DNA from: a virus
Taxonomy: Duplodnaviria; Caudoviricetes
Direction: 5' to 3' (one strand)
Virus record (IMG/VR): IMGVR_UViG_3300030330_006019
Span: 1 to 64,000 of that record
DNA: 64,000 nt
A program made the position numbers and the translations under genes. Under the pieces are notes generated by a model. That model saw only the letters and a list, made by a program, of their open reading frames with translations. It made no database searches and had not been told where the DNA came from. Shown here piece by piece: positions 15,287-34,390 of the stretch (the stretch's first letter is position 1; each line of letters starts with the position of its first letter).

Positions 15287-15309
15287 AACTAGATTATTAT
15301 CAAATAAAA

Positions 15310-17397: not shown

Positions 17398-17434
17398 AAT
17401 TGTGTATCAGGATACCAGTTATCCCATTCATCAT

Positions 17435-18990: not shown

Positions 18991-18994
18991 AATT

Positions 18995-19968: not shown

Positions 19969-19977
19969 AATGTTTTC

Positions 19978-20310: not shown

Positions 20311-20319
20311 AATTTTTTC

Positions 20320-21048
20320 CTATCTACAGTTTCTAGCATATTGAGTTAAAAAATCATTCAAATCTCTAAATGCAGCTAAACCTTCACCAAGATGGCCTTT
20401 AGGAATTCCTGGTGTATTTTCGGCTTCACCATCTGAAAGTCTTTCTCCAAGTGCCAACATATATCTACAAGAAGAATATTTTTCTAATATATCTTTCTGA
20501 CCAGCCGCTGGTACTCTACTAAACCATTCAACTGCAAATGCTCCCTTCTTTTTTGTACGTCCATCTGAATCTGTTTCTTGTTTTAATCTAACAACATTTC
20601 CTTTTCTATCCAATCCAACTTTTGACCCAGATTCATTTATTACTGGTTCATTTGGGTTAAAAAAACTAGCACTAAGAGTTGTACCATCAGTTTTAGTCTT
20701 TGCCAAAAATTTTGGATTCGTAACTCTAAAACAAAATTGCGTGGATGCTCCATCACTCGAACTACACATTCTTTCTGCACGTATACCGTACTTTAAGTCA
20801 TCTCCATCAATTGCCCTGTCATACATTCCTTCAGCTGATGCTGATGCCTTTATACCAGCAATTTTATCTGCCTTCTTAAATAGTGGGCGTCTTTCACCGT
20901 CCTTATCACGACTAATTAATCGTCTCTTATCAGTTTCCTTTTGAATTATTATTTCACTAGTTGGTACTTCTTCAATTTTTTCACCACAGTGTTCACAAAA
21001 TTCTTCAAGTATTTGCTGACTACCACTAAATGTCATTCTTAGAACCAT
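20320..21048 (-). CDS. Hypothetical protein
   Basis: 242-aa ORF, TAATG coupled, N-terminal CEHC. Confidence 0.7.
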   Translation of the reverse strand: MVLRMTFSGSQQILEEFCEHCGEKIEEVPTSEIIIQKETDKRRLISRDKDGERRPLFKKADKIAGIKASASAEGMYDRAIDGDDLKYGIRAERMCSSSDGASTQFCFRVTNPKFLAKTKTDGTTLSASFFNPNEPVINESGSKVGLDRKGNVVRLKQETDSDGRTKKKGAFAVEWFSRVPAAGQKDILEKYSSCRYMLALGERLSDGEAENTPGIPKGHLGEGLAAFRDLNDFLTQYARNCR

Positions 21049-22481
21049 TATATCTCCAACTGTTTATTTATTTCTTCCCTTACTGTTTTAATAAATTTTG
21101 ACTCATTTGTATTTTCTAAACCTAAAGCTGTGACTATATCTAAAACATTATAGTCATCTTCAAGTCCTGACTTCTTTAATTCAGTTTTTACAATTTCTTT
21201 AACCTTTTCTATATCTTCATCATCTTCACTTACACCAGATGCTTTTGCCATTTCACCAGCACCAACATTACTAGCACTACCAATTGCAAATCCTTGTTTT
21301 ACAACAGGGTGGCTGGCCATACTAGCTTCTTTCATATTCTTCATCCAACCAAATGCATCCATTGTATATGCCATTGCAGCTTCTGGATCCTTTTCTTTTA
21401 GTTTTTTAATTAATGCCTTTACACCTTTTCTATGAAAATGTTTTTCTGGTAATCTATCCAATGCATTCTTAAACTTGTTTGAAACTGTTGGATACTTTTT
21501 TGCTTCATTAACCTCTTTGACCTTCTTCTCTTTAGCCATTAATTGTTGAATTTTCAAAAGAGTTTCTTTATCTTTTTTAGAAAGTTTACTCATAATTTTT
21601 TGTCTATGCATATCTTTTAATGCTTTTTCCCATGATTCAGTTGATTCTGCAACATCTGAACCATCAATTTTTGCTTCAGCATCTTCAGCATATCCATAAG
21701 CCGATGGAGCTTTAACAGCTGCACCACCTCTTTCAGTCATTTCTTTCTGTATTAAATCACGTAGTAATACTTTTAATTCTTTAACATCAACATCTTCTAC
21801 ATCTTTTGTTTCATTTGCTTTCTTTAGCATATCAATCAACTTCTCAGCTTGTCCACCATGTAGTTTACTTGCACCTCTTAATTGTGTTACTATCTTTTCT
21901 ATTTTATCAGCTTGTCCACCATGTAGTTTACTTGCGCCTTTTAGCTGTGTAATTATTTTTTCTATAGATTTTTCATAATCTTTAATTGGCTTTTTGTTTT
22001 CTTTAACAAGTTTCAAATCACCAGCACTAGCACCAGCAGCACCTAAACGATATTTGTTTCTCATACCTGTAGGTTTTATATTATATGTACCATTACCAAA
22101 ATCATGTATGACTTCATGTTTTTCACCTTTATGAGGTCCCTTATTTGGAATTACAATACTACCTTTTTTTATTTTAGCTTCTGTTATTTTGCCTTCATTC
22201 TTTGCAGCATTTTGTTTTTTTCTTAATTCTGCTGGGTTATCGGCTAGTCCATCCTTACCATCTAAATAATTGTATACACTTTGTAAATAGTCCATTGACT
22301 TTGTCAACTTTGACTGCACCCATGAAGGAAACTGTAACTTATCAGAATCACCACCATAATTGTCCATGAAATCATATATCATTTTTGCATATTCCATAGA
22401 ACGCTCAAGTTGTGATTTTGCCATTTGGCCTTCGTTATCTTCAAGCTCAGTTAATTGTTTTTTTGTTATTTTGTTTTTCAT
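21048..22481 (-). CDS. K/E-rich modular protein, possible head core or internal protein
   Basis: EGQMAKSQL...WVQSKLTK..DYL module; many hydrophobic-x-E sites (LTE, ITE, VKE, MTE, VNE, MKE); internal 21-aa duplication. Confidence 0.7.
   Translation of the reverse strand: MKNKITKKQLTELEDNEGQMAKSQLERSMEYAKMIYDFMDNYGGDSDKLQFPSWVQSKLTKSMDYLQSVYNYLDGKDGLADNPAELRKKQNAAKNEGKITEAKIKKGSIVIPNKGPHKGEKHEVIHDFGNGTYNIKPTGMRNKYRLGAAGASAGDLKLVKENKKPIKDYEKSIEKIITQLKGASKLHGGQADKIEKIVTQLRGASKLHGGQAEKLIDMLKKANETKDVEDVDVKELKVLLRDLIQKEMTERGGAAVKAPSAYGYAEDAEAKIDGSDVAESTESWEKALKDMHRQKIMSKLSKKDKETLLKIQQLMAKEKKVKEVNEAKKYPTVSNKFKNALDRLPEKHFHRKGVKALIKKLKEKDPEAAMAYTMDAFGWMKNMKEASMASHPVVKQGFAIGSASNVGAGEMAKASGVSEDDEDIEKVKEIVKTELKKSGLEDDYNVLDIVTALGLENTNESKFIKTVREEINKQLEI
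21844..21965. repeat. 63-bp tandem duplication inside the 477-aa gene
   Basis: tcagcttgtccaccatgtagtttacttgc at 21844 and 21907; protein IEKI(I/V)TQL(K/R)GASKLHGGQA twice. Confidence 0.9.
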
Positions 22482-22484
22482 AGC

Positions 22485-23735
22485 TTACTTTCCATACATT
22501 CTTTTAACTACATTTCCACCTTTTTTAAGTTTTCTTTCATAATATCCATTATCAAGGTGCTTTATAAATTTAGGACCAACCATTCTTTCAATTTTACTTT
22601 TGTCAGTTATTACAGGTGCGCCTTTCCCTATCATAATATCATTCATCTTTTTACTAGCTTCTAAACTATAACCTTCAGATTTTACCATGTTTACAACTTT
22701 TTTAACAACTGCACTCTTACTTGGTCCTTGACCATCAGTTGCTAATAATTTTACACGATTACCTCTTGTGAATATAAAGGCATCTGGCATAGGGTCTTTA
22801 TCAACATCGATTAACATTACTATTTCATATCCAGATTTTAACTCTGATGGTGAAAATGCTGATAGTTGCATACCTTCTGAAGAATAGACAGCTTTGTAAT
22901 GCTTAAATATATCATTCATTATTCTATCATCTATATTAGATAATTGTTGCTTTATCCATTTCTTTTTTGGATGGTTATCTAAATCATAATTTTCAGGTAA
23001 TAAGTTTTTTAGTGATAACTTTTTTTCTTCAGCAATTGCAATAATAGCTGTGATTTTTGTTCTCTTTGTTATTCTGTATTCATTTAAGTTTACATGTTTT
23101 TTCAAATGTTCAAATAGTGACTTTGCTAAATTTACACCAAATGATGTATCTGATGCATAATGAACTTTTGCAACCATTCTTGAATTTGCAACATCTGCAC
23201 CTAAATTCATTAACTCCATACTATGCTCTGGATATATTTCTGATAGTATTAATGAAATTAATGTTCCTTGAGTTGCATGTCCTGATGGATATGCTGGTGT
23301 TTGTGCAGATTCTAATGGTTCTTCATGAAATCTTAATCTGTATGATTCTGCTATTTGTTTAGGTCTAGGCCTGTTGTAATGATATTTTAATTTTAATACT
23401 ATTGACCTTACAGCTTTGGTAACCTCTGTTATAAATGCCTTTGGAAAAACATGGTCACATCCACATGAATTTTCAATAAACCATTTTTCAAAATATTCTA
23501 TTGTTTTATCACCTTCATGTATAAATTTGTTATCTAATGGAATAGCATCAATTTGAAGTATTTCTCTAAATGTTGCTTGACTACTATTTTTTGGTGGTGG
23601 CATTGCCATCCACTGTGATGTATCAAAAGTATCAAATGGTTTTGCAGGATTGTTTATTACATCCAGATGTTTCTTTTTGATATTATCTGAATATACCATA
23701 TTATTCATATTTACTATGTCAACTAAACTAATCAT
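22485..23735 (-). CDS. PAP2/vanadium-haloperoxidase-superfamily phosphatase fused to a C-terminal unknown domain
   Basis: K..YNRPRP, PAYPSGH, SR....HY.SD. Confidence 0.85.
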   Translation of the reverse strand: MISLVDIVNMNNMVYSDNIKKKHLDVINNPAKPFDTFDTSQWMAMPPPKNSSQATFREILQIDAIPLDNKFIHEGDKTIEYFEKWFIENSCGCDHVFPKAFITEVTKAVRSIVLKLKYHYNRPRPKQIAESYRLRFHEEPLESAQTPAYPSGHATQGTLISLILSEIYPEHSMELMNLGADVANSRMVAKVHYASDTSFGVNLAKSLFEHLKKHVNLNEYRITKRTKITAIIAIAEEKKLSLKNLLPENYDLDNHPKKKWIKQQLSNIDDRIMNDIFKHYKAVYSSEGMQLSAFSPSELKSGYEIVMLIDVDKDPMPDAFIFTRGNRVKLLATDGQGPSKSAVVKKVVNMVKSEGYSLEASKKMNDIMIGKGAPVITDKSKIERMVGPKFIKHLDNGYYERKLKKGGNVVKRMYGK

Positions 23736-24322
23736 TAGTATTGTTCCATTCTATCCAATTTAGCCATAAGTTTTTTGAACTGAGCCTTTTTCTGTTTATA
23801 TTCTTTTTGTTTCTTTTCAATCTCTCTACCATATCTAGTGGCTTTAGGACCACCTTCCGGTTCAGCTTCTTGTTCCATGTCTTTGTAAAGTTCACTTAAG
23901 GCTTTATTAATCATTTGCATATCCATTTCAATATCCATTATCTCGTCTTGTAATTTCATTTTAGCATCAAAATGTTTCCAAAGACTAGTAGCTTCAGTTA
24001 ATTTGTTTTCATCTACAGAAGAAACCAATGCAAATGGCATTTGTAATTCATCTTGTTCTTCTTTATCTTCAGTCTTAAGTCCTTTTTTGATTTTGTTTAC
24101 TAACATCATCAATTCACCAGAATCTATTTTTAATGCCTCTATCAATCCGGCCAATAAAACTTTTTGTTTTTGGCGATTTAGATTTGCACCCCTGATTGCT
24201 GATAAAAACTTTTCCATGTATCTTTTTATTTCAGAAGGTAATGAAGGTGTTGCTTCAGTTACTTTGCTTTCATTTAATTCTTGGCGTATCATATTTTTAA
24301 TTTCATTTAATAATTTACTCAT
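23735..24322 (-). CDS. Coiled-coil protein (putative virion-internal)
   Basis: Start moved to MSKLLNE (ATGA overlap at 24319-24322); LNE, VTE and LTE sites. Confidence 0.7.
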   Translation of the reverse strand: MSKLLNEIKNMIRQELNESKVTEATPSLPSEIKRYMEKFLSAIRGANLNRQKQKVLLAGLIEALKIDSGELMMLVNKIKKGLKTEDKEEQDELQMPFALVSSVDENKLTEATSLWKHFDAKMKLQDEIMDIEMDMQMINKALSELYKDMEQEAEPEGGPKATRYGREIEKKQKEYKQKKAQFKKLMAKLDRMEQY

Positions 24323-25020
24323 GATTTTCTCAACTCCAATTCTTTTCTTATCCATGCTTTTGCAATTGGATTTTGTACTGGTTTAGACATAAATGAATTT
24401 GCTCCACGCTTAACTGCCCGTTCAAATTCTTTGTATTCACTATTGTCCACTATTAACATATTACTTGCACCAAATAAACTTTGAAATTTTCCAAGATTAC
24501 TTTGTACATCTGACCAGCCTTTCTTTACAACATCCGTTGGTACTTTTCTTTCACGCCTTTGATTTCTTTTTAATGCAACATCTAAATCGGTATTAACAAA
24601 TACCATGTAGCAATCATATCCAACAGACTCTAATCTTCTTTTTTGTTTTGCTATTTTTGCATAATCTTTTCCAGTTCCATCAATAAGCAATCCAAGTCTT
24701 CCATTTATATAATTCTTAAGAGCAGCATCTCTAACCTTTTTACTCTTTTTTCTTATCTCCATAGCTTGTTCATATTCTGCTGGTGTCATCTTTGCAATAT
24801 CTTGGGATAGTCCACTCATTTTCAAATATGTTTCAAAGTACTTGTCACTATTAACAGATTTTAGTCCTTTTGCAGAAACAAATGGCATTTTTTCTGGCAT
24901 ACCAAATAATGTAGATGCAACATATGACTTTCCACTACCAGGACCGCCAGCTGTGAACACAGCCTTAAATATACCCGGGTCATATACACCTTCTGTTAAT
25001 ATGGCAACAAGTTTAATCAT
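24319..25020 (-). CDS. P-loop kinase, zeta-toxin-like/AAA_33, with MIKLxxILxE leader
   Basis: AGGPGSGKS, VNSD, LLIDGTG, FVNTDLDVALKRN..RER. Confidence 0.85.
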   Translation of the reverse strand: MIKLVAILTEGVYDPGIFKAVFTAGGPGSGKSYVASTLFGMPEKMPFVSAKGLKSVNSDKYFETYLKMSGLSQDIAKMTPAEYEQAMEIRKKSKKVRDAALKNYINGRLGLLIDGTGKDYAKIAKQKRRLESVGYDCYMVFVNTDLDVALKRNQRRERKVPTDVVKKGWSDVQSNLGKFQSLFGASNMLIVDNSEYKEFERAVKRGANSFMSKPVQNPIAKAWIRKELELRKS

Positions 25021-25496
25021 GAAGCCCTTTTCAATACATTAACATTTTTCAATCCAGCTAAGAAATCATCCGTAAGAAAAACTGCTCTTCCTATTTCTCT
25101 TTCAGGACCTTTATCTGGATAGTTAGGTCTCTCCTCTACCATCACTGCTGTTAGGTTTACACCACCTGTTCCAAAATCCCTATGATGATATTGAGTTTGG
25201 TGTATAAAGTATTTCTTTCCGTCCTTTCCTTCAACAACATGATACTGTATATGTACAAACATAACTCCTTGAGTTCTGTTCATATTTTGGTCTATGAATT
25301 TTACTTGCTTTTGAGCTTTACCAAGGTTTACCTTTGAAAAACCAGCTTTCTTTAATGTTCTTTCTACTGCTTTTGCATTCTGTGTATTTCTACTGTACAT
25401 GTCCATAGGGTCAAAGTCATATTCAGTAAACTCGTTTAATTGGTGCTTACCTTCTAATAGTTCTCTTCTCCATTTTGAGTCATTAAATTTTGTCAT
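25017..25496 (-). CDS. Hypothetical protein (putative virion-internal)
   Basis: LLE/LNE near the N-terminus; coupled to neighbours. Confidence 0.7.
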   Translation of the reverse strand: MTKFNDSKWRRELLEGKHQLNEFTEYDFDPMDMYSRNTQNAKAVERTLKKAGFSKVNLGKAQKQVKFIDQNMNRTQGVMFVHIQYHVVEGKDGKKYFIHQTQYHHRDFGTGGVNLTAVMVEERPNYPDKGPEREIGRAVFLTDDFLAGLKNVNVLKRAS

Positions 25497-25498
25497 AA

Positions 25499-25885
25499 TT
25501 ACACATCCAATACTTTATTTGTTGTTTGAAAATTTTTCTTTCTCATCACTGTTTTTACTATTAAATCCAATTCACCATCTTTATCCTGTGCAAATACAAA
25601 TGGCATATTTATATCACTTCTCATGTCCTTTATAACGGCTTGAGCATCTGATGTTAGAGATGGTAATTTTTTTCCATACTTATTCCATGTTCTCTTAAAA
25701 ACACCAATTAATTCTGCTGATGATATTGGCTTTATATTTCTCTTATCATTAACACGTTGTCTAAAGTGTCTTGTAAAATCAACGTCGATACCTGCTGCCG
25801 CAAAAAGTTTATCTGCATAACTTTCAACATTACGCATATCACTCTTTGTTACATACTCAAATAGTATATCTGTTAATTTAATCAT
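25499..25885 (-). CDS. Conserved phage protein, possible BECR-fold RNase-like; MIKLTDILFE leader
   Basis: FTRHF.QRVND.RN...KTVMRK resembles the H-x-x-x-R...T signature of BECR-type nucleases; fold is inferred. Confidence 0.55.
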   Translation of the reverse strand: MIKLTDILFEYVTKSDMRNVESYADKLFAAAGIDVDFTRHFRQRVNDKRNIKPISSAELIGVFKRTWNKYGKKLPSLTSDAQAVIKDMRSDINMPFVFAQDKDGELDLIVKTVMRKKNFQTTNKVLDV

Positions 25886-26106
25886 TACTTTCCATTACCT
25901 TTTATTTTTTCTATTGAACTTATACCAAAGCTACCTAAAGTAACAATGACAAATGAATTATATATTACTTCATTTATTACAAGTTCCATACCACACCATC
26001 CAGTAATTAAATCTGCAATTGCAAATAATACCATTAATATAAATGATGCAAAGCCAACAATGGCCTTTTCATTTATATCATTTTCATCCTTAAATAATTT
26101 CCACAT
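25885..26106 (-). CDS. Small 2-TM membrane protein (holin-like size)
   Basis: Two hydrophobic helices and a charged C-terminus. Confidence 0.7.
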   Translation of the reverse strand: MWKLFKDENDINEKAIVGFASFILMVLFAIADLITGWCGMELVINEVIYNSFVIVTLGSFGISSIEKIKGNGK

Positions 26107-26453
26107 TAGAATCCCTCTAATAATATTTCATCAATCTTTTCCTGTACATCTTCTTTGGTTGCTTTCATAGCAAATGATATATCTGCTTGAAATCTTTTAA
26201 CCTCTTCTCCATCGTTAAAAATTATAATTGTTGGTACAACAACTATTTCCCATTTACCTTGAGCCTTTGTATCTGTAGCTATGTCACACTTTTTCACTTT
26301 ACAGTCTGTCAAATCACTTACCCATTTAACATCGTTTGCTGAATTCCAATTTGCATTGAAGTGAACTACTTGTACACCACTACCAACCTTTAAGCTTTGG
26401 CTGAAACCAATTATTGGCAATAACATAACTATAATCAATTTAATAAATTTCAT
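26106..26453 (-). CDS. Exported thioredoxin-fold protein lacking CxxC
   Basis: Signal peptide; VVHFNANWN in place of F.A.WCxxC; I.VVPTIIIF.DGEEV.R cis-Pro loop. Confidence 0.75.
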   Translation of the reverse strand: MKFIKLIIVMLLPIIGFSQSLKVGSGVQVVHFNANWNSANDVKWVSDLTDCKVKKCDIATDTKAQGKWEIVVVPTIIIFNDGEEVKRFQADISFAMKATKEDVQEKIDEILLEGF

Positions 26454-26456
26454 AAC

Positions 26457-26747
26457 TTATCTCCTGTTTAGTTCATCAATTTTTTCCTCAATCCTGTCCA
26501 AATCTTCCTTTATTTCTTCAACGTCTTCTTGAGTATTCTCTATGGTTAAACGTATGTTTTTATCCTTCATATCAAATTCCATTCTTGTGACATCCGGTGG
26601 AGGCGGAACTGGTAATTCTTTTGCCTCTTCAATATCTGCCTGTAGTGCAAACCACATTCCGATAACTGTTGCCATTGCGAATCCAATTGCAATAAGGGTT
26701 TTTATACTAACCTTAAAACCTGAATCTTCATTTAATTCCTTTGCCAT
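26457..26747 (-). CDS. Single-TM protein with Pro linker and C-terminal coiled coil
   Basis: TM LIAIGFAMATVIGMWFAL, PVPPPP, heptad VEEIKEDLDRIEEKIDEL; AGGAG SD. Confidence 0.75.
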   Translation of the reverse strand: MAKELNEDSGFKVSIKTLIAIGFAMATVIGMWFALQADIEEAKELPVPPPPDVTRMEFDMKDKNIRLTIENTQEDVEEIKEDLDRIEEKIDELNRR

Positions 26748-26757
26748 GTGTAAACTC

Positions 26758-27837
26758 CTAAAATATTACGTAGTTAAGTCCAAAACTAAAATCGTGCCAA
26801 TTACGATTCCAGTACTTATTATATTTTCCTTCAACAAATAACCCTAATTTTTTTGGTATAACATAATATCCAAATATAAGGCCACCTGAATAATCTATCC
26901 ATTGTCCACCGTTATATTCATGATAACTAAATTCACCACCATCATCATAATGATATGGCATTACGTTACCCCAACTATGTAACCAAAATTCTTTTGTGAA
27001 ATGATAAAAATCAAATCCAATAACAACTGAATATTGAAATGTTTGGTCTAATTGATTTCTCTTCTTTTCAGTATAATCTGATAATACAGTTGGTATAACA
27101 ACACCTTCCCATATTGCCGTATTTTCTGCAACTAAGTTTCCTGATGGATTGTAATAGGTTTCACCACCTTCACCATCGAATTGTATTGTATAGCCTTCTT
27201 GTATTGCTAATTGAGTATAATGTAAATTACCATTTGATAACATCCATTCTTCCAAAGGATCATATCCATAAGGTTCAGATAGTCTTTGTACTGCACCTAT
27301 ATTAAATGATAATTTATTACCAACCTTTTGCCTAAATCGTTGAGATGCTTCAAAGTATTCTATATCTGCAAATCCATCTTGTAAATATTCAACCTTAACA
27401 ATCCACCTGTCTGCTACATATCTCAAAAAGTGATTTTGGTCTAAAAAGTTAGTACCTTGTTGTCTTCTATAATCAGCTTCAAATAAAAATTCAAACCCAG
27501 AAACTCGACCAATTGTTGCTGCATCACTAAAACTATTTTCTGTACCATTATAAAATGTATTTGCTCTATTCTCATATCCTAATCTTGCAATCTTTCTTAC
27601 ACCAGCTGTAAGTGAATAATCAAATGGAGTAGAAATTGTATTTGTTTCTAAACCATTAGTAACTGAAAAAATATCTACATCTGAAACTGAATTACCTCCA
27701 TTTACAGCACCATAAAATGTTGCAAACTTAAATGTCTTTTTAAGACTTTTCTGTATTTTATCAAACTTATTATCTTTAACTTCTTGACCAAACACTAATG
27801 CTGGTAACATACATAGTATGATTAGTAACTTTTTCAT
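26758..27837 (-). CDS. Outer-membrane beta-barrel protein
   Basis: Signal peptide, aromatic-rich alternating strands, C-terminal FSFGLNYVIF. Confidence 0.75.
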   Translation of the reverse strand: MKKLLIILCMLPALVFGQEVKDNKFDKIQKSLKKTFKFATFYGAVNGGNSVSDVDIFSVTNGLETNTISTPFDYSLTAGVRKIARLGYENRANTFYNGTENSFSDAATIGRVSGFEFLFEADYRRQQGTNFLDQNHFLRYVADRWIVKVEYLQDGFADIEYFEASQRFRQKVGNKLSFNIGAVQRLSEPYGYDPLEEWMLSNGNLHYTQLAIQEGYTIQFDGEGGETYYNPSGNLVAENTAIWEGVVIPTVLSDYTEKKRNQLDQTFQYSVVIGFDFYHFTKEFWLHSWGNVMPYHYDDGGEFSYHEYNGGQWIDYSGGLIFGYYVIPKKLGLFVEGKYNKYWNRNWHDFSFGLNYVIF

Positions 27838-28148
27838 TTTCTTTTACTCCTATTTTTATTAGGCTTATTTGGTTTATTATTCCAAGTTGGTCTATGACCA
27901 TTATATGTAGGTTTATTATTTGGTTTTACAATTACATAATTAGTTGTTTGCTTTGGTCTTGTTAGCCACCACCAATTATAATAATTTGGATATGTTTCAT
28001 AATGATATGTAGTTGGTGGTTTACAACATGCATGGTTAGTCAAGCAAGGTTCACCTCTTAGCATTAATTCACATTTGTGCGGTGCTTCATATGTTAAAGC
28101 ACAACTTGTAAATAACATTGTTAATAATATGTAAATAATCTTGTTCAT
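27834..28148 (-). CDS. Lipoprotein, Cys-containing with Pro/Asn/Lys-rich tail
   Basis: Lipobox LFTSC. Confidence 0.7.
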   Translation of the reverse strand: MNKIIYILLTMLFTSCALTYEAPHKCELMLRGEPCLTNHACCKPPTTYHYETYPNYYNWWWLTRPKQTTNYVIVKPNNKPTYNGHRPTWNNKPNKPNKNRSKRK

Positions 28149-31100
28149 TATTTTTGCTTTATTACTCGTTTAGTTATTTTTAATTTATCATATGTTATGA
28201 CTATATTGTACAATCCTTCTGATATTTCTGAAATATCTAGTCTTTTAGCATTTTCTTTTGACAATATTAATCTTCCCATCATATCGTATAATTCTACATT
28301 AACATCTAATCTTGTATCAATGTTTAATATATCTCGTGTTGGATTTGGGTATATTACAATAGTACCAGAACCTGACATTTCATCAATAGATACTGGCCAT
28401 CCATCTTGGCAATAGTCGTACATTGATTGACAACTTGCATCCCAATCATTTGTACAACAATAATCATCAACATCAATTACCCAAGCATAACATCCATCAT
28501 TTAACCAATAAGGTATACCTGGTCCTCCATAACAACCTGCATCATATAAACATGCGTCTGGGTCAGATACATTGGCTAATGGGTCAAAGTTATATGCGCC
28601 TACATCTGTACAACCTACGATTATAGTTACACAGGTTCCATCATCATAACATGCATCTGGGTCATAATTAAGTGCAGTAGCATCAGTACAGCCACCTATA
28701 TAACAACAACTATTATCTAAAGTATTTGCCAATGGGTCATAATTAAGTGCAGCGGCATCAGTACAACCATAAACAAATGGTTCACATGTTCCGTTATCAG
28801 TATTAGCTAATGGGTTATAGTTAAACTGGGTTGAATCAGTACATCCATAAATAAACGGAATACAATTTCCTGATGATGTATTTGCTAGTGGGTCATAATT
28901 CCACATTGTCGGATCCATACAACCAATAACTACTGGGATACAACTATTATCATCTGTGTTTGCAAGAGGGTCATAGTTAAACATTGTTGGGTCTGTACAT
29001 CCGTATACATAAGGTATACATGAACCATCATCTGTATTTGCAGTTGCAGAGTAATTATACATTGTTGAATCAGTACATCCATAAATATATGGTATACAAG
29101 TTCCATCATCATCTGTAGCAGTTGGGTCAAAATTAATTGATAATGGGTCTGTACAACCAGCAATTTCTAATTCATCACAAATTCCATCACCATCAGTATC
29201 ATTTATACATGCACCATAACAATCATAATATTGTGTTGGGTAAATACATCCACCATTATCTACATTTGCAATTGCATCGTAATTACATGCTGTTACATCT
29301 GTACAACCTAGATATATACATGAAAAGTCATCAACATTTGCTAAGGGATTGTAGTTATATGCCAAACTATCAGTACACCCGTTAACAATAGGAATACAAC
29401 TGTTATCATCAACCGTTGCATTTGGGTCATAATTTATTGCAAAAATATTTGTACATCCATATATAATAGGAATACAACTGTTATCATCTACATTTGCCAA
29501 TGGGTCATAATTTGCAGCCGTACTATCTGTACATCCATACACTACTGGAATACATGTATTTCCACAAAATGGTACTCCAGTATATTTTGTCCAAAATGGA
29601 GATTCAAATGATTGAAGTGCTCCTTGACCATTATTAGCAAAAGGATTCTGTCCTTCATGCATTAACACAACACCATCTGCATTTGTTAGCTTAAATGAAT
29701 TGTGCCATGTTTGGAATTGTACTTCCTGAGGTGGTTGTTGTGGTCCACCTATTTCAAAATAAAATACTTCTACTGGAACTCCTGGGTCTAATACGATATT
29801 CCAAGTTTGTTGATAATTACCTGGTCCCATTGTATAAGTTCCAAGATTTATACCATTTTGATAAACTCCAATAAATGAGTTACCCCAACCATCACCACCT
29901 GCATCGCCAATCCATAATTCATAGTCACAATCTGGAGTTAAGTCCATCATTGTTGCAGTAGGGTCATAATTAAATGCTGCTGGGTCTGTACAACCATAAG
30001 TATGTAATGTTGCACAAGTTCCATCATCTATGTTTGCGGCTGGATTGAATTCAACATAATCATCATCAGTACAACCTAAAACATCTGGAATAACTGGACA
30101 AGGTGTTGCTGTTTGTGGTCCTGAATATAATACATTTCCAAAACCTGGATTGTCCATATACCAAATAGTATCTCCAGCACAATCATATATTACAGCTGCT
30201 CCATCAATAGAACCACCTGATGTAGAACCTGCCATTCCATCACCATAGTCATCATTTAATATTAATTCAAATGCAGCATTTTGGTCTACACAGAATGAAT
30301 AAGTATATGTTTGTCCTATATCATTAAAATCATAAGTTCCTACTGGATAATCAAATGTATTACCTAAGCCATCAACAAATTGCCAACTTGTTTCACCTGG
30401 CCAATTATCTAATGTTAATGAAAGAGATATTTGATATTGTGTGTTTGTATCACATGTTGTTCCTGAACATGAACCGTCATCTATTGTTGCCCAAGGATTA
30501 TATGATATTTGAGCTGGGTCTAAACAACCTGGAATACACGAGTATGGAGTATAAGCAATTGTATCTGACATTGAACCATCTGCAAACTCTAACTGACAAT
30601 AAAATTCTTCTTCCCAATTAGGTGGCATTTGACCTGGTCCTGTATTAAATGCAAAGTTATGAGGTCCGCCAGCTGGCCAATAACCTGGAAATTGAAATGG
30701 TCCTAAGCCATTTTCATTACTTATCCATACACTTACAACTTCACAATTATTACCTGGAGCAGTTTCCCATTCAAATATAGATAATGCTTGACCATTTGGT
30801 TGACAGTTCTGATATGCATTACTAAAAATAAGACCACCACATGGAGGATACGTACATGAACCATCATCAATTGTTGCAAGTGAATTGTAATTGGTTGCAT
30901 TTGTATCTGTACACCCAGTTACTGGTGGTGCACAAGGTTGTATGATAAGATTGTTTGCTAAATATGTTGTACCAAAATCACCAGCCACATATGCCAATGT
31001 ATCTTGACAATCATTTTGTATTAGTAACCAACCTTCTGGTGAGCCATTCCATCCAGCTAAACCATCACCATAAGAATCATTTAGTGTAAATTCAAATGGA

Positions 31101-31318
31101 CTATCTAATGAAGATAAATCAACTATTTCATCATATAAAGTTTCAGCTGTTAATACTGAATCACTCTCAGCAATTAGTTGTCCTGAACCATCTGTTAGTG
31201 TCCAGCTAGTTTCGTCTGGATAAGCATCAGTTAATAATTGTATATTTATCCAAGTATCTGTTGTTTGTGCAAATATTACTGATGGTAATAATAGCAATAA
31301 AAATAATAACTTTCTCAT
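28148..31318 (-). CDS. Large secreted surface protein with 16 Cys/Asp-rich repeats and a T9SS type A C-terminal sorting domain
   Basis: Signal peptide; GCTDxxAxNYDPxAxxDDGSC repeats; D.YP.ETSW...DSYGDG domains; C-terminal IYPNPTRDILNI...YDMMGR...LDIS....GLY....KRVIK. Confidence 0.9.
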   Translation of the reverse strand: MRKLLFLLLLLPSVIFAQTTDTWINIQLLTDAYPDETSWTLTDGSGQLIAESDSVLTAETLYDEIVDLSSLDSPFEFTLNDSYGDGLAGWNGSPEGWLLIQNDCQDTLAYVAGDFGTTYLANNLIIQPCAPPVTGCTDTNATNYNSLATIDDGSCTYPPCGGLIFSNAYQNCQPNGQALSIFEWETAPGNNCEVVSVWISNENGLGPFQFPGYWPAGGPHNFAFNTGPGQMPPNWEEEFYCQLEFADGSMSDTIAYTPYSCIPGCLDPAQISYNPWATIDDGSCSGTTCDTNTQYQISLSLTLDNWPGETSWQFVDGLGNTFDYPVGTYDFNDIGQTYTYSFCVDQNAAFELILNDDYGDGMAGSTSGGSIDGAAVIYDCAGDTIWYMDNPGFGNVLYSGPQTATPCPVIPDVLGCTDDDYVEFNPAANIDDGTCATLHTYGCTDPAAFNYDPTATMMDLTPDCDYELWIGDAGGDGWGNSFIGVYQNGINLGTYTMGPGNYQQTWNIVLDPGVPVEVFYFEIGGPQQPPQEVQFQTWHNSFKLTNADGVVLMHEGQNPFANNGQGALQSFESPFWTKYTGVPFCGNTCIPVVYGCTDSTAANYDPLANVDDNSCIPIIYGCTNIFAINYDPNATVDDNSCIPIVNGCTDSLAYNYNPLANVDDFSCIYLGCTDVTACNYDAIANVDNGGCIYPTQYYDCYGACINDTDGDGICDELEIAGCTDPLSINFDPTATDDDGTCIPYIYGCTDSTMYNYSATANTDDGSCIPYVYGCTDPTMFNYDPLANTDDNSCIPVVIGCMDPTMWNYDPLANTSSGNCIPFIYGCTDSTQFNYNPLANTDNGTCEPFVYGCTDAAALNYDPLANTLDNSCCYIGGCTDATALNYDPDACYDDGTCVTIIVGCTDVGAYNFDPLANVSDPDACLYDAGCYGGPGIPYWLNDGCYAWVIDVDDYCCTNDWDASCQSMYDYCQDGWPVSIDEMSGSGTIVIYPNPTRDILNIDTRLDVNVELYDMMGRLILSKENAKRLDISEISEGLYNIVITYDKLKITKRVIKQK

Positions 31319-31464
31319 ATTTCAAATCCCAAATTAAATATCATAAATCTAAACTTACTTGCTTCCCACTTCATTTCTAATACTGTGAAAGTACCAACTC
31401 TAAATTCTAGGTAGTACTTCTCTTTTTTATTTCCGGCGTCAAACCCGTTTATCCAGTTAATCAT
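31315..31464 (-). CDS. Small hypothetical protein (49 aa, not in ORF track)
   Basis: Manual translation MINWINGFDAGNKKEKYYLEFRVGTFTVLEMKWEASKFRFMIFNLGFEI; GGGAG SD; ATGA overlap with the T9SS gene. Confidence 0.6.
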   Translation of the reverse strand: MINWINGFDAGNKKEKYYLEFRVGTFTVLEMKWEASKFRFMIFNLGFEI

Positions 31465-31480
31465 AACATTCTCCCTTTAT

Positions 31481-31786
31481 TTAATATTCAAATGGCGGTG
31501 TACCATATTTATCTTTGTCAATTCCATGCCAAACATTTCCAATTTGAAAATACCACCACCCATATTTTGTGTCATCAACAACCTTAAACTTTCTAGGTAA
31601 TTTAACTGTCTTTTGTGGTGCTCTTGCAATGTACTTAAGAACAGGAGTTCCATCATCCCAAGTTCTTGTTGTTGATTGTGTTTTTGCACTATTTCCACCG
31701 GAAGCTGTATACATTTTTGCTCCAGGAATATCCGTTAGCAATCCCTTATACCCATCTTCATTTAATAATTTAGACAATTTAATCAT
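31481..31786 (-). CDS. Hypothetical protein with MIKLSKLLNE leader
   Basis: Leader motif; AGGAG SD. Confidence 0.7.
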   Translation of the reverse strand: MIKLSKLLNEDGYKGLLTDIPGAKMYTASGGNSAKTQSTTRTWDDGTPVLKYIARAPQKTVKLPRKFKVVDDTKYGWWYFQIGNVWHGIDKDKYGTPPFEY

Positions 31787-31795
31787 TTTCTTCTC

Positions 31796-32023
31796 CTAGT
31801 TATTTGCAGGGTCGTGTGGTGCTATTGGTTCTTTTTTAGGCGTGTTCTGCAAATCATTAATTGCTTCTCTTAAAAGCTGTTCTTTCATATCCATGCCATC
31901 ACATCTACTTTTTAATTCTGCAATGTCATCTTCTAATTTACAACATTTTTCATCAAATGTTTTTTGTGATACCATACATGAACTTAATGTAAATATCATA
32001 AGTAATATAATTAGATTTTTCAT
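31796..32023 (-). CDS. Lipoprotein with coiled coil (spanin-like candidate)
   Basis: MKNLIILLMIFTLSSC lipobox; TAATG overlap sets the start at 32023. Confidence 0.65.
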   Translation of the reverse strand: MKNLIILLMIFTLSSCMVSQKTFDEKCCKLEDDIAELKSRCDGMDMKEQLLREAINDLQNTPKKEPIAPHDPANN

Positions 32024-32325
32024 TAACAACAAGTTCCTTCACCACCTTTACAAGGTTTACATTTACATGTTGCCCACCATGCCCAACCTACAGTTATTGC
32101 TAATAGTCCTAGTGCTAGCCAATTATTAACGCCAAATAAACATCCAGCACCTAATGCTGTAACATATGCACCATAACAATTTACATAACATAAGATTAAA
32201 TTATATAGACTTCTATTCTTGTCTATGTTTTCAATAATTTTTTCATCGATAGTTGTTGAATCTAAAACTTTTTTTACAACTTTCTTTGCTGTTTTCTTTA
32301 CAGCCTTTTTTACTTTTTTTGCCAT
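32023..32325 (-). CDS. Membrane protein with Lys-rich N-terminus and Cys-rich C-terminus
   Basis: KKVKKAVKK..., 2 TM segments, CKCKPCKGGEGTCC. Confidence 0.7.
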   Translation of the reverse strand: MAKKVKKAVKKTAKKVVKKVLDSTTIDEKIIENIDKNRSLYNLILCYVNCYGAYVTALGAGCLFGVNNWLALGLLAITVGWAWWATCKCKPCKGGEGTCC

Positions 32326-32330
32326 TTCTT

Positions 32331-32720
32331 TTATCCTTTGAATACTTGTTTTTTGCCGCCGTGATACTCGTAAGCATGTCCTTCGGCTTTAAGTTGTTCA
32401 TTTATATTATATTGCTTACCTTCACTATCCATTATAAAAATCTCACCAAGTACTCTACCATATTTACCAACACCGTAAGATTTTAATCTGAAATATCCAG
32501 GCTTGCTGGATACTTCATTTAATAGTTGTTTATTTCTAGCCTTTGCAGCTAATCCTTTTTTCTTTTCATCCAGGTCTCGAGTTCTACTTTCCCAAGTATC
32601 AATTCCCATATATCTGATTCTTTTCTTAACCCATATATCAAAACCTACATCGATAAGAGCATCAATAGTATCACCATCAACCACTCTATCTAATTTTGCC
32701 CTGTAGATATACTTATCCAT
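32331..32720 (-). CDS. Thermonuclease (SNase-like)
   Basis: RVVDGDTI, RIRYMGIDTWE, GKYGRVLG, INEQL..EGHA. Confidence 0.9.
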   Translation of the reverse strand: MDKYIYRAKLDRVVDGDTIDALIDVGFDIWVKKRIRYMGIDTWESRTRDLDEKKKGLAAKARNKQLLNEVSSKPGYFRLKSYGVGKYGRVLGEIFIMDSEGKQYNINEQLKAEGHAYEYHGGKKQVFKG

Positions 32721-33196
32721 TAAAATGCAGCTCGTCTAATTCTATCCATTAAAAATTCTAGAATTTCATCATTTTCAAATCCTTCATCATACAAATCTTT
32801 TTGTATAATTTTTGCACCAATAATGACTTGTTTCATTGCTTTCATATTATGAAGTCCGTCCATTCTTTTTGCAGTTGCAAGATTTAATCTTTCATCAACA
32901 GATTCTCTTTTAGGTCCATGCTTTTTATATATATCTTTGAACTCCTTTTTAGCTTTAGGAGATAAATATCTTTCGATACCAAATGCATTAGCTGGTCCAA
33001 TCAATGAAGCTATTCTACCTCTTAAGATTTGCTTACTATATTTTCTACCATAGGGAGACCTCATAATAAAATCCATCATACCCTGAGCTAAATCTTTTGA
33101 CATCTTGATTCCTTCAATAGAAGTTGTTCTTCCTTTGATTACATCTGTCAATCCAGCCTTTGTAGATATTTCATTTATAATGTTTCTTAATTTCAT
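32720..33196 (-). CDS. Hypothetical protein with MKLRNIINE leader
   Basis: Leader motif; AGGAGG SD. Confidence 0.7.
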   Translation of the reverse strand: MKLRNIINEISTKAGLTDVIKGRTTSIEGIKMSKDLAQGMMDFIMRSPYGRKYSKQILRGRIASLIGPANAFGIERYLSPKAKKEFKDIYKKHGPKRESVDERLNLATAKRMDGLHNMKAMKQVIIGAKIIQKDLYDEGFENDEILEFLMDRIRRAAF

Positions 33197-33198
33197 GA

Positions 33199-33438
33199 TT
33201 ATCCTCCTATCTTTGCATATGTATGCATATCTGCTAGAGCTTTAAGTGCTTTCTTTTTAGCCTTTTCAAATTCTTTTCCATATCTTCCTGAACCACCACC
33301 TTTTTGAGCAAGGTTTGCCATTTGAAATATTTTTTTAATATTTTCAGCTTCTGGGTTCTTTCTCATTTTAGGTGCAGCTTCATTTGTTTCCTTTTCAGGT
33401 GAAAAAGCTTTTTGCGATATTATTGTTTTTAATTTCAT
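33199..33438 (-). CDS. Small basic protein with MKLKTII leader
   Basis: Leader-like N-terminus; AGGAG SD. Confidence 0.65.
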   Translation of the reverse strand: MKLKTIISQKAFSPEKETNEAAPKMRKNPEAENIKKIFQMANLAQKGGGSGRYGKEFEKAKKKALKALADMHTYAKIGG

Positions 33439-33785
33439 TATTTCTCTCCTACGATTCTAGACATTAATTTTGGATAACCTGAAACTACTAGTAAATTCTT
33501 AAGCATTTTTTGTAATACTGTTTTATCAGAACCTTCAGCCGTTTTAAGTTCATGTTTTATATGATTGACAAATGCTTTACAGTTAGACTCAAATTCTTTT
33601 GCAAATTGTCTGTCCATTTCAGCTTCTGTTAGTTCTTCATTTTGTTTTCTAATTTTTTTACCAGCCTTTACAGCAGCTTTATAAGATTTAGACCGTGGGT
33701 CTGACTTTTCACCACGCTTCTTTTTAGCATGAATGTTTGCCCAAAGACCCTTGTTCTTTTCAGTAATTATGTCTTGTAGTTTCAT
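33438..33785 (-). CDS. Basic protein with MKLQDIITE leader
   Basis: GLWANIHAKKKRGE motif; internal LTEA site. Confidence 0.7.
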   Translation of the reverse strand: MKLQDIITEKNKGLWANIHAKKKRGEKSDPRSKSYKAAVKAGKKIRKQNEELTEAEMDRQFAKEFESNCKAFVNHIKHELKTAEGSDKTVLQKMLKNLLVVSGYPKLMSRIVGEK

Positions 33786-34390
33786 TATACTATATCTTTT
33801 GATTCAATTAACGTATATGTAAAGTTATTACTCCACTTATCTCTAGCAACTCTACATATATCCAAAAATTCATGCCAATCATCATTAGCTGCAATTACTT
33901 GGCAACCTGCACTCCACTTGTCTACTTGGCTAGATTTTCTTCCTCCCCATTTTGTAGCTCTATGGATATTGATTCCAAATAAACCTGTTTGTGTATTGTT
34001 ATCATCTAGGTCATATTTATCATCACGATTGTTGTCACGATAAACTGTCACTGGTCTATGTTGACCTAATGCTTCATATCTTCCTTGATGTAATCTGATT
34101 TTATGAGAACCTTTATATTGGCCTGGCTTTAATACTGCCACGCCTTCTTTTCTCATTATATTTTCTACCCAGTGTGTTCCTGGGTCTGTTGTACAATCAT
34201 AACAATAAAATTCCCATTCACCTTCACACTTAAATGAAATTGTTATTTTGTCATCGAATTTATTTGTAACTTCGTTACCTGTTTCAGAATTTCTGATTCC
34301 AACAATGTTGACATTATAGTCACCATTTTCAAACCACTTATAGCCTTTTGATTTAACAGCCGCCTCTACCTGTTCTCTTGTGATATTCAT
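33785..34390 (-). CDS. Putative YkuD-like (L,D-transpeptidase fold) peptidoglycan enzyme, endolysin candidate
   Basis: GINIHRA-x12-WSAGCQV matches the H-x(14-17)-S-x-G-C catalytic motif; no signal peptide. Confidence 0.6.
   Translation of the reverse strand: MNITREQVEAAVKSKGYKWFENGDYNVNIVGIRNSETGNEVTNKFDDKITISFKCEGEWEFYCYDCTTDPGTHWVENIMRKEGVAVLKPGQYKGSHKIRLHQGRYEALGQHRPVTVYRDNNRDDKYDLDDNNTQTGLFGINIHRATKWGGRKSSQVDKWSAGCQVIAANDDWHEFLDICRVARDKWSNNFTYTLIESKDIV

What the first reader, a model, noticed from the sequence alone, without database searches (positions are those of the whole stretch)
25885..31464. Phage-encoded cell-surface display operon built around a T9SS substrate
Seen: seven tightly coupled genes, six with envelope signals. 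In order: a 49-aa beta-rich peptide, a 1056-aa protein with signal peptide, 16 Cys/Asp repeats and a type A T9SS sorting domain, a lipoprotein, a 359-aa OM beta-barrel, a TM plus coiled-coil protein, an exported thioredoxin fold without CxxC, and a 2-TM protein. Established: the T9SS is largely Bacteroidota-specific, and some cargos need a co-encoded barrel (SprB/SprF, PorP family). Inference: the phage supplies cargo plus its own anchor or shuttle and folding helper to remodel the infected cell surface, for exclusion, adhesion or grazer avoidance. I know of no described lytic-phage system like this.
Basis: partly seen in the sequence, partly recalled or inferred. Interest (0 to 1): 0.85.

Follow-up and report, generated by a model that had tools for sequence, protein, structure and literature searches.

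The report
Phage envelope cassette with T9SS fibre
An uncultured marine Bacteroidota phage carries a phage-only four-gene set, common in marine viral DNA and usually beside the lysis genes: a cysteine-rich fibre tagged for the host's type IX secretion system, an outer-membrane barrel, an inner-membrane coiled coil and an inactive periplasmic thioredoxin; its role is untested.

Summary
All seven ORFs sit at the stated coordinates and are tightly coupled, and six carry export or membrane signals.

- **Cargo.** The 1056-aa protein has a Sec signal, 16 Cys/Asp repeats and a type A T9SS sorting domain scoring above the curated cut-off.
- **Conserved core.** It is four genes: cargo, a 12-stranded OM barrel, a TM coiled coil and a thioredoxin fold lacking its CxxC. 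They co-occur in essentially every related IMG/VR locus, whether the search starts from the barrel or the cargo. They occur in three gene orders and on phage backbones with unrelated portals. Bacterial genome hits are only MAG contigs of scattered taxa.
- **Variable members.** The lipoprotein is lineage-specific. The 49-aa and 2-TM genes are frequent but optional.
- **Barrel identity.** It is not PorP/SprF, PorV or PorQ by HMM or profile-profile tests, so "own anchor or shuttle" is analogy, not membership.
The cassette usually lies beside endolysin and holin genes of four unrelated families, or among structural genes. That points to late expression and a role near lysis.
- **Prior knowledge.** Phage-encoded T9SS cargo is published (Bellas 2020). 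I found no paper on this cassette. This scan had already noted it in other genomes.

Best reading (about 0.45): a late-made surface fibre with dedicated envelope partners. A lysis device remains a serious rival.

The parts
31315..31464 (-). 49-aa cytoplasmic small protein (g49), overlapping the cargo start by 4 nt; a frequent but optional cassette member
   Evidence: ORF. No signal or TM segment. Conserved at 47-94% identity in 21 of 80 barrel-anchored loci and in many cargo-anchored loci, next to the cargo or the barrel. No family hit.
28148..31318 (-). 1056-aa T9SS type A cargo: Sec signal, beta-sandwich domains, 16 Cys/Asp repeats, a conserved Cys-rich stem (about residues 926-985) and the sorting domain (989-1055)
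   Evidence: TIGR04183/PF18962 above cut-off. Sorting domain present in 54/56 homologues. 16 repeats and 57 Cys. Residues 287-408 model as a beta-sandwich at pLDDT 95.6. The N-terminal sandwich (19-128) is the most variable part (41% identity) and the stem the most conserved (84%). At least 3958 relatives, nearly all of those listed carrying PF18962.
27834..28148 (-). 104-aa lipoprotein-like ORF; lineage-specific and not part of the conserved core
   Evidence: Lipobox LFTSC. A homologue appears only in L002 among 80 loci. In some relatives the barrel itself starts with a similar lipobox signal.
26758..27837 (-). 359-aa outer-membrane 12-stranded beta-barrel of a phage-only orphan family
   Evidence: Signal peptide and C-terminal Phe. 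AF2 pLDDT 74. Best fold matches are KdgM/NanC and autotransporter beta-domains at Z 13-15, while PorV reaches only Z 8.6. 3740 homologues, none named and none with a Pfam domain. 406 representative clusters. No Pfam, NCBIfam or PHROG hit. hhalign against PorP, PorV and PorQ gives 5.8%, 0.4% and 0.2%.
26457..26747 (-). 96-aa bitopic inner-membrane protein: N-terminal TM segment, Pro-rich linker, periplasmic helical/coiled-coil tail
   Evidence: TM segment at about residues 11-37. Present in 79/80 loci, always directly upstream of the thioredoxin-like gene, at 56-99% identity. Only weak spanin or holin PHROG hits (E 0.06-0.07) and no clear family.
26106..26453 (-). 115-aa exported thioredoxin-fold protein without the CxxC motif
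   Evidence: Pfam Thioredoxin 23.6 bits against a 23.5-bit cut-off. The family profile hits PDB thioredoxins at E 2e-8, with a 5-residue gap where WCGPC would lie. The signal peptide is kept in relatives. Present in 79/80 loci.
25885..26106 (-). 73-aa two-TM protein with a charged C-terminus (holin- or antiholin-like topology); a frequent accessory member
   Evidence: Two TM segments. Found in 40/80 loci, often between the thioredoxin-like gene and an endolysin. No family hit.
31796..32023 (-).
   Evidence: Read from the sequence. Lipobox LSSC. Homologues only in L002 and L012. No Pfam hit.
33785..34390 (-). 201-aa endolysin-like gene at the head of the gap-free gene run that contains the cassette
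   Evidence: phrog_33083 'endolysin' at E 4.5e-17 and phrog_3000 at E 6.5e-35. The same family lies within 3 kb of the cassette in 20 of 80 related loci. No Pfam or PDB sequence hit, so the label rests on PHROGs alone.

Best explanation
This is a phage-specific, laterally shared, late-expressed envelope cassette. Its core is four genes that work together.

Proposed mechanism:
1. The cargo is exported by Sec. Its 57 cysteines and Ca-type repeats fold in the periplasm, probably with the redox-dead thioredoxin-fold protein acting as a holdase or chaperone.
2. The type A sorting domain hands the folded cargo to the host's T9SS.
3. The cargo ends up as a long repeat fibre on the outer membrane. The variable N-terminal beta-sandwich forms the tip. 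The highly conserved Cys-rich stem docks on the phage's own 12-stranded barrel.
4. The inner-membrane coiled-coil protein and the thioredoxin-like protein link the barrel to the inner membrane, or help assemble it.

The cassette sits with lysis and structural genes, so the fibre is probably made late. It would then act around or after lysis, for example by masking receptors on the cell and its debris, by excluding other phages, or by sticking the infected cell to particles or neighbours.

Shown: the sequence features, the conservation, the co-occurrence, the phage-only distribution and the lysis neighbourhood.
Inferred: secretion through T9SS, docking on the barrel, the chaperone role, expression timing and the biological role.
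For: - Type A sorting domain above cut-off, and kept in 54/56 homologues.
- Sec-type signals kept on cargo, barrel and thioredoxin-like protein across relatives.
- The four genes are present in 77-80 of 80 barrel-anchored loci and 63 of 77 cargo-anchored loci. The remaining loci are cut by contig ends.
- The four stay clustered through three gene orders.
- The cassette occurs on backbones with unrelated portals, yet the barrel stays at least 60% identical.
- Bacterial-genome hits are only MAG contigs of scattered taxa.
- Cargo gradient: the N-terminal sandwich is 41% identical, the stem before the sorting domain 84%. This is what an adhesin-like fibre with a conserved docking base would show.
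- The cargo repeats also occur in cyanophage proteins annotated 'virion structural protein' beside genes annotated as tail-fibre genes, which suggests they build fibres.
- The barrel's largest inter-strand insertion (residues 188-265) is densely conserved. That it faces outward is my reading of the topology.
- The thioredoxin fold lacks its redox motif.
- Late context: endolysin or holin genes lie within 3 kb in 44/80 loci, and portal and tail-like genes flank the cassette in other lineages.
- Precedent for phage-encoded T9SS cargo: PMC7468147.
Against: - No experiment and no expression data. No T4-type late promoter enrichment and no sigma-70 enrichment.
- The barrel is unrelated to the known T9SS barrels PorP/SprF, PorV and PorQ. 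To my knowledge, type A cargos are not known to need a private barrel.
- The cargo beta-sandwich has only weak fold matches (Z at most 5.8), so a binding role is not shown.
- The lysis neighbourhood and the spanin-like topology of the 96-aa protein fit a lysis device equally well.
- The host is unknown, so presence of a T9SS in it is assumed.
Confidence: 0.45

Rival explanations
1. Lysis or egress device. Barrel, inner-membrane coiled coil and periplasmic thioredoxin-like protein form an envelope-spanning complex. It carries out or controls the outer-membrane step of lysis in marine Bacteroidota phages, as a functional analogue of spanins. The T9SS fibre would be part of that device or its trigger. 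The 2-TM protein would be a holin or antiholin.
For: - Endolysin or holin genes of four unrelated families lie within 3 kb in 44 of 80 loci and in most cargo-anchored loci.
- The 96-aa protein has i-spanin-like topology: an N-terminal TM segment and a periplasmic helix.
- The 73-aa protein has class II holin-like topology and often sits directly before the endolysin.
- In this window the cassette shares a gap-free run with an endolysin-like gene.
- Weak PHROG spanin and holin hits (E 0.06-0.07).
Against: - It does not explain why a T9SS cargo co-occurs obligatorily in both search directions.
- The periplasmic part of the 96-aa protein is only about 58 residues, which is short for a spanin (my own estimate).
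- No conserved o-spanin-type lipoprotein. The 104-aa lipoprotein is present in only 1 of 80 loci.
- The proteins are far more conserved (barrel at least 60%, coiled coil 56-99%) than I would expect of lysis proteins.
- Accessory late genes in lambdoid phages (bor, stx) also sit beside lysis cassettes (my own knowledge), so adjacency alone is not specific.
- Cultured Bacteroidota phages in GenBank lack the barrel.
Confidence: 0.3
2. Superinfection exclusion or envelope immunity. The inner-membrane, periplasmic and outer-membrane proteins block entry of competing phages, as T4 Imm and Sp or T5 Llp do. The fibre masks or competes with T9SS-dependent surface receptors.
For: - The components sit in all three envelope layers.
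- The N-terminal sandwich, the presumed fibre tip, is the most variable cargo domain.
- The cassette is shared among unrelated phages that presumably infect similar hosts.
- Bellas et al. suggest exclusion as a role for phage T9SS cargo.
Against: - Exclusion genes are usually early, whereas this context looks late.
- Barrel and coiled coil are very conserved, which is not expected in an arms race.
- No homology to any known exclusion protein.
Confidence: 0.12
3. The 1056-aa protein is a virion fibre, and the sorting-domain match only reflects an Ig-like decoration domain. The neighbouring envelope genes would be unrelated.
For: - Its repeats match cyanophage proteins annotated 'virion structural protein' beside genes annotated as tail-fibre genes.
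- In some lineages the cassette lies between the portal gene and tail-like genes.
Against: - A conserved N-terminal Sec signal in essentially all complete homologues.
- The sorting domain scores well above the curated cut-off in 54/56 homologues.
- Obligate linkage to an outer-membrane barrel and to exported proteins.
- No paralogue of the cargo elsewhere in a complete 145-kb genome of this lineage.
Confidence: 0.05

Closest known systems
Phage-encoded T9SS type A cargo genes of 'Cryophage' (Bellas et al. 2020, Nat Commun, PMC7468147)
   Same: A phage of a Bacteroidota-type host encodes proteins with a type A T9SS sorting domain. They are presumed to hijack the host secretion system and were suggested to act in exclusion or competition.
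   Different: The Cryophage cargos are enzymes or a PA14-domain protein, they vary between variants, and the text I read mentions no partner genes. Here the cargo is a non-enzymatic Cys-repeat fibre. It is locked to a phage-only barrel, a coiled-coil protein and a dead thioredoxin, and it sits by the lysis genes.
sprCDBF-type operons: the SprB adhesin with its PorP-like barrel SprF in Flavobacterium johnsoniae (my own knowledge)
   Same: A large repeat-rich T9SS surface protein is co-encoded with an outer-membrane barrel and small accessory proteins. This gives a plausible cargo-plus-private-barrel logic.
   Different: SprB carries a type B sorting domain and SprF belongs to PF11751. Here the sorting domain is type A, and the barrel shows no PorP/SprF relationship (HMM: no hit; hhalign 5.8%). 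The genes here are phage-borne.
Two-component spanins
   Same: An inner-membrane protein with an N-terminal TM segment and a periplasmic coiled coil is encoded next to an outer-membrane partner and next to holin and endolysin genes.
   Different: The outer-membrane partner here is a 359-aa beta-barrel, not a small lipoprotein. There are two extra obligatory partners, the thioredoxin-like protein and the T9SS cargo. The periplasmic domain is short. Only weak spanin PHROG hits were found (E 0.06).
Phage-encoded outer-membrane proteins (lambda Lom and Bor, from my own knowledge; cyanophage Phage_OMP PF24653)
   Same: Phage genes for outer-membrane barrels or lipoproteins that are expressed from the phage genome.
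   Different: PF24653 is absent from this genome, and in S-CAM3 it is a small protein far from the repeat protein. The barrel here is 12-stranded, belongs to an orphan family, and is part of a fixed four-gene set.

Membership tests
T9SS type A cargo (CTD-bearing substrate) | C-terminal TIGR04183/PF18962 sorting domain above the curated cut-off | tested here: met
   46-48 bits against cut-offs of 23-27, at residues 989-1055. 54/56 homologues match.
T9SS type A cargo (CTD-bearing substrate) | N-terminal Sec signal peptide | tested here: met
   A basic then hydrophobic N-terminus ending in AQ, kept in nearly all complete homologues. This rests on a heuristic reading; no dedicated signal-peptide predictor was available.
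T9SS type A cargo (CTD-bearing substrate) | Secretion depends on a host T9SS, followed by removal of the sorting domain | not testable with these tools
   The host is unknown. The nearest phage GroEL genes are from Flavobacterium phages.
PorP/SprF (PF11751, TIGR03519) | Match to the family HMM or profile | tested here: not met
   No Pfam or NCBIfam hit at E up to 0.1. hhalign against 10 PorP/SprF sequences gives 6.3% and 5.8% probability.
PorP/SprF (PF11751, TIGR03519) | Partnered with a type B sorting-domain cargo | tested here: not met
   The adjacent cargo matches type A (TIGR04183); no type B model was among the hits.
PorV / PorQ (T9SS outer-membrane shuttle and attachment barrels) | Family HMM or profile match, and a 14-stranded FadL-like fold | tested here: not met
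   hhalign gives 0.4% and 0.2%, against 93.8% for the PorV-PorQ control. The model has 12 strands. PorV chain 6h3i_F reaches Z 8.6, against 14.8 for KdgM.
Two-component spanin | i-spanin: N-terminal TM segment plus periplasmic coiled coil | tested here: inconclusive
   The topology fits, but the periplasmic part is only about 58 aa and the spanin PHROG hit is only E 0.06.
Two-component spanin | o-spanin: a small outer-membrane lipoprotein encoded adjacent to or within the i-spanin gene, and conserved with it | tested here: not met
   The 104-aa lipoprotein has a homologue in only 1 of 80 loci. The conserved outer-membrane partner is a 359-aa barrel.
Two-component spanin | Location in the lysis cassette | tested here: met
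   Endolysin or holin within 3 kb in 44/80 loci, and in most cargo-anchored loci.
Thioredoxin (PF00085) | Thioredoxin fold | tested here: met
   Pfam 23.6 bits against a 23.5-bit cut-off. The family profile hits PDB thioredoxins at E 2e-8, and the cis-Pro VVPT loop is kept.
Thioredoxin (PF00085) | Redox-active CxxC motif | tested here: not met
   The position reads FNAxWNxxN, with a 5-residue gap where WCGPC would lie, in all 39 aligned members.
Autotransporter (type V) beta-domain | 12-stranded barrel fused to an N-terminal passenger domain | tested here: not met
   The fold resembles the EstA and NalP beta-domains (Z 14.4 and 13.3). However, the protein is only a signal peptide, a short helix and the barrel, with no passenger and no Pfam autotransporter hit.
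Class II holin (for the 73-aa protein) | Small size, two TM segments, charged C-terminus, next to an endolysin; family HMM match | tested here: inconclusive
   The topology and the frequent position before the endolysin fit. No PHROG or Pfam holin family was matched, and other holin genes coexist in the same loci.

The most novel reading that the evidence does not exclude
The cassette is a previously unknown way for phages of Bacteroidota to deal with the outer membrane at the end of infection. A phage-built assembly would span the envelope: an inner-membrane coiled coil, a periplasmic dead thioredoxin and a 12-stranded outer-membrane barrel. It would be coupled to a fibre sent through the host's T9SS. 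It would breach the outer membrane in place of spanins, or control when lysis happens.
Probability: 0.25. Interest if true: 0.9.

Novelty: new variant of a known kind. Interest (0 to 1): 0.68.

Why it matters
The cassette is abundant. The barrel has 3740 relatives and the cargo at least 3958 in public metagenomes, and hundreds of IMG/VR contigs carry them. It is confined to phages and is kept nearly intact across unrelated phage backbones, so it must matter for infecting marine Bacteroidota, which are major degraders of algal-bloom carbon.

It would be the first fixed multi-gene system in which a phage supplies both a T9SS substrate and its own envelope partners. Depending on which reading is right, it would show either how phages re-dress the host surface late in infection, or a new solution to the outer-membrane step of lysis in a phylum where spanins are poorly known. 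It also offers a natural handle on T9SS cargo recognition and surface anchoring.

Tried and rejected
- **Known T9SS barrel (PorP/SprF, PorV, PorQ):** rejected. No HMM hits. hhalign gives 5.8%, 0.4% and 0.2%, while the PorV-PorQ positive control gives 93.8%.
- **Cyanophage Phage_OMP (PF24653),** a lead from the protein atlas: absent from this genome. In S-CAM3 it is a small protein far from the repeat protein.
- **Pfam scan of distant barrel relatives:** nothing relevant.
- **Host insert or chimera:** rejected. GC of the genes is 0.27-0.36 against 0.317 for the window. The cassette sits in phage context in more than 140 contigs. Bacterial-genome hits are only MAG contigs of scattered taxa, including Nitrosopelagicus, Rickettsiales, Parvibaculum and Flavobacteriales, which is typical of mis-binned viral DNA.
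- **Cargo as a mimic of the phage's own tail fibre:** no second copy of its domains in a complete 145-kb genome of this lineage or in the 105-kb contig.
- **Timing from promoters:** TATAAATA is not enriched (19 found, 15.4 expected). Sigma-70-like sites are not enriched (82 found, 87.8 expected). The gene run is gap-free from about 34390 to 17435.
- **Function of the cargo beta-sandwich:** only weak, generic fold matches to Ca-binding sandwiches, PLAT/C2 domains and CBMs (Z at most 5.8). The sequence search against the PDB finds only sorting domains. The protein atlas gave nothing above 0.9.
- **PHROG scan of 34 coiled-coil and 2-TM family members:** only unnamed families.
- **Cultured phages:** no barrel homologue in 50,697 GenBank phage records and no DNA match. 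Sorting-domain hits occur only in two records over 630 kb and one gut fragment.
- **Endolysin-like gene:** no PDB sequence match and no Pfam hit. Its label rests on PHROGs alone.

Full report
**1. The observation**

Their junctions are -4, -1, -4, +10, +3 and -1 nt.

- **Cargo (1056 aa).** It starts with a Sec-type signal and has 57 Cys and 16 GC[TLM][DN]...C repeats. Its last 67 residues match the T9SS type A sorting domain well above the curated cut-offs: Pfam PF18962 at 47.7 bits against 27, and TIGR04183 at 46 bits against 23.
- **Barrel (359 aa).** It has a signal peptide and ends in Phe. It models as a 12-stranded outer-membrane barrel with a short N-terminal helix and one large inter-strand insertion (pLDDT 74). 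The best fold matches are KdgM/NanC porins and autotransporter beta-domains at Z 13-15.
- **96-aa protein.** It has one N-terminal TM segment, a Pro-rich linker and a charged helical tail.
- **115-aa protein.** It is an exported thioredoxin fold. Its family profile hits PDB thioredoxins at E 2e-8. The WCGPC segment is deleted and reads FNAxWNxxN in all 39 aligned members.
- **73-aa and 104-aa proteins.** The first has two TM segments. The second has a lipobox.

**2. It is a phage, not a chimeric insert**

The window is part of a 105-kb IMG/VR virus record that CheckV rates 42% complete. It encodes phage-type DNA ligase, CobS/CobT-like proteins and GroEL. Among phage records, the closest GroEL genes are from Flavobacterium phages. 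GC content of the cassette genes (0.27-0.36) brackets the window mean of 0.317.

The barrel has 142 confirmed relatives in IMG/VR, and the cargo's beta-sandwich domain has 416. Among one genome for each of 185,579 prokaryote species, the barrel appears only on eight MAG contigs of scattered taxa, including Nitrosopelagicus, Rickettsiales, Parvibaculum, Maricaulis, Flavobacteriales and Sphingobacteriales. That is the pattern expected of mis-binned viral contigs.

**3. The conserved unit is four genes**

- In 80 barrel-anchored loci, barrel, coiled coil and thioredoxin-like gene are adjacent in 79, and a cargo homologue is present in 77.
- In 77 cargo-anchored loci, 63 hold all four genes. The other 14 are cut by a contig end on the side where the missing genes would lie.
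- Three gene orders occur: cargo-barrel-cc-trx, barrel-cc-trx-cargo, and cc-trx...cargo-barrel. The coiled-coil and thioredoxin-like genes are always adjacent in that order.
- 54 of 56 distinct cargo homologues keep the TIGR04183 domain. Signal peptides are kept on cargo, barrel and thioredoxin-like protein.
- The 2-TM gene occurs in 40 of 80 loci, the 49-aa gene in 21, and the 104-aa lipoprotein in 1.
- In some relatives the barrel itself begins with a lipobox signal that resembles the start of the 104-aa ORF.

**4. The cassette moves between unrelated phages**

The flanking genes are mosaic. The 812-aa portal that directly precedes the cassette in one lineage has no detectable homologue in a complete 145-kb genome with terminal repeats from the window's own lineage. 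Even so, the barrels of these lineages are 60-67% identical.

The barrel family is large (3740 relatives) but compact: 406 clusters at 50% identity among 1.84 billion representatives. Neither the 120 listed relatives nor the ten distant members I scanned carry a name or a relevant Pfam domain. The cargo family is equally large, and nearly all listed members carry PF18962.

**5. What the barrel is not**

- No Pfam, NCBIfam or PHROG family matches it.
- A diversified barrel alignment (Neff 3.9) was compared by profile with T9SS barrels taken from two Bacteroidota MAGs. The probabilities were 5.8% for PorP/SprF, 0.4% for PorV and 0.2% for PorQ. The PorV-PorQ positive control gave 93.8%.
- The cargo's sorting domain is type A, whereas the SprB/SprF precedent concerns type B cargos (my own knowledge).

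**6.

PHROG scans identify four frequent neighbours:
- a 201-aa family: phrog_33083 'endolysin', E 4.5e-17;
- a 151-aa family: phrog_894 'endolysin', E 7e-30;
- a 128-145-aa family: phrog_3427 'holin', E 4e-33;
- a 138-aa family: a weaker holin-like hit, phrog_199, E 4e-4.

At least one of these lies within 3 kb of the cassette in 44 of 80 barrel-anchored loci. By my count from the listing, at least one also lies within the 9-kb flanks in about 46 of the 63 complete cargo-anchored loci. For a roughly 5-kb module in a 145-kb genome, I estimate chance adjacency to a given gene at under 10%.

In other lineages the cassette sits between the portal gene and tail-like genes.

In this window the 201-aa endolysin-like gene (33785-34390) heads a gap-free, co-directional run that reaches past the cassette. 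The run is interspersed with proteins that share an M(I)KLxxI(L/I)xE start. Another reader of this scan took these for capsid-targeted proteins.

All this suggests late expression, but I could not show it. Neither T4-type late promoters nor sigma-70 sites are enriched.

**7. The cargo looks like a fibre with a variable tip and a conserved base**

- Residues 287-408 model with pLDDT 95.6 as a beta-sandwich. Its fold matches are weak and generic: Ca-binding sandwiches, PLAT/C2 domains and CBMs, all at Z 5.8 or lower.
- The Cys/Asp repeats also occur in proteins of Synechococcus phages S-CAM3 and S-H9-2 annotated 'virion structural protein'. In S-CAM3 that gene lies beside genes annotated as tail-fibre genes.
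- Across 14 full-length homologues, the N-terminal sandwich is the most variable part (41% identity). The 60-residue Cys-rich stem just before the sorting domain is the most conserved (84%). The sorting domain itself is 54% identical.
- The barrel's largest inter-strand insertion (residues 188-265) and a low-confidence stretch (85-112) are densely invariant.

**8. Interpretation**

The obligate two-way co-occurrence says the four proteins work together. The most economical model has these steps:
1. Sec exports all of them.
2. The dead thioredoxin handles the Cys-rich cargo in the periplasm.
3. The host T9SS exports the cargo.
4. The cargo's conserved stem is held on the phage barrel.
5. The coiled-coil and thioredoxin-like proteins couple the assembly to the inner membrane.

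All of this would happen late in infection (confidence about 0.45).

The main rival (about 0.30) is that the barrel, coiled-coil and thioredoxin-like trio is itself an outer-membrane lysis device, or controls one. That reading fits the neighbourhood and the topology. It does not explain the obligatory cargo, the short periplasmic domain or the unusually high conservation. Exclusion (0.12) and a virion fibre (0.05) are less likely.

**9. Novelty**

Phage-encoded T9SS type A cargo has been reported once, for 'Cryophage' enzymes (Bellas et al. 2020, PMC7468147). T9SS-sorting ORFs were noted in passing on crAss-like contigs (PMC6949934). Four literature searches found no paper on this cassette.

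In GenBank phage records the barrel is absent. A similar sorting domain occurs only in two records over 630 kb and one gut fragment.

This scan had already noted the same cassette in other genomes. Two follow-up reports reached similar readings. I reached the lysis link independently before seeing them.

Noticed in passing
window 15600-16013 (-) and 15310-15534 (-): A second, small phage-encoded outer-membrane barrel: 137 aa, signal peptide, ends in Phe, with a weak OMP_b-brl hit (E 0.007). A 74-aa two-TM protein is encoded just downstream.
   Followed up: partly
window 31796-32023 (-) and 32023-32325 (-): A 75-aa lipoprotein (lipobox LSSC, helical middle, Pro-rich tail) directly follows a 100-aa protein with a very basic N-terminus and a C-terminal TM segment. 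The lipoprotein recurs only in L002 and L012. The TM protein recurs in 11 loci. They could be lineage-specific lysis or envelope genes.
   Followed up: partly
window 16876-33785 (-): Many otherwise unrelated proteins flanking the cassette start with M(I)KLxxI(L/I)xE. They include a Zeta-toxin-like kinase (24319-25020) and a PAP2-domain protein (22485-23735). The motif resembles T4 prohead-protease targeting and cleavage leaders, which would mark them as late, capsid-packaged proteins.
   Followed up: no
window intergenic gaps, e.g. 60135-60171, 51259-51318, 44911-44945, 9237-9290, 15207-15309: A recurrent GTTATATT(A/T) motif lies just upstream of gene starts in most intergenic gaps. No such gap or motif occurs inside the run from about 34390 to 17435 that contains the cassette.
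   Followed up: no
G004 (contig of L062), about 104-107 kb and 222-226 kb: This 245.6-kb viral record carries two non-identical cargo copies (1014 and 1008 aa open frames; 57% and 55% identity to the query) about 119 kb apart. They are either a true duplication or two related genomes joined in assembly.
   Followed up: no
L004, L006, L010-L012, L023, L030, L035 (barrel N-termini): In these relatives the barrel begins with a lipoprotein-type signal (…ASCA.PK.CC…) resembling the start of the window's separate 104-aa lipoprotein ORF. This suggests a gene split or fusion, and that the barrel is lipidated in some lineages.
   Followed up: partly
window 26106-26453 (-), C-terminus: The periplasmic thioredoxin-like protein ends in a nearly invariant Phe (…SxF). 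A C-terminal Phe is better known from outer-membrane proteins, so it may be a docking signal.
   Followed up: no
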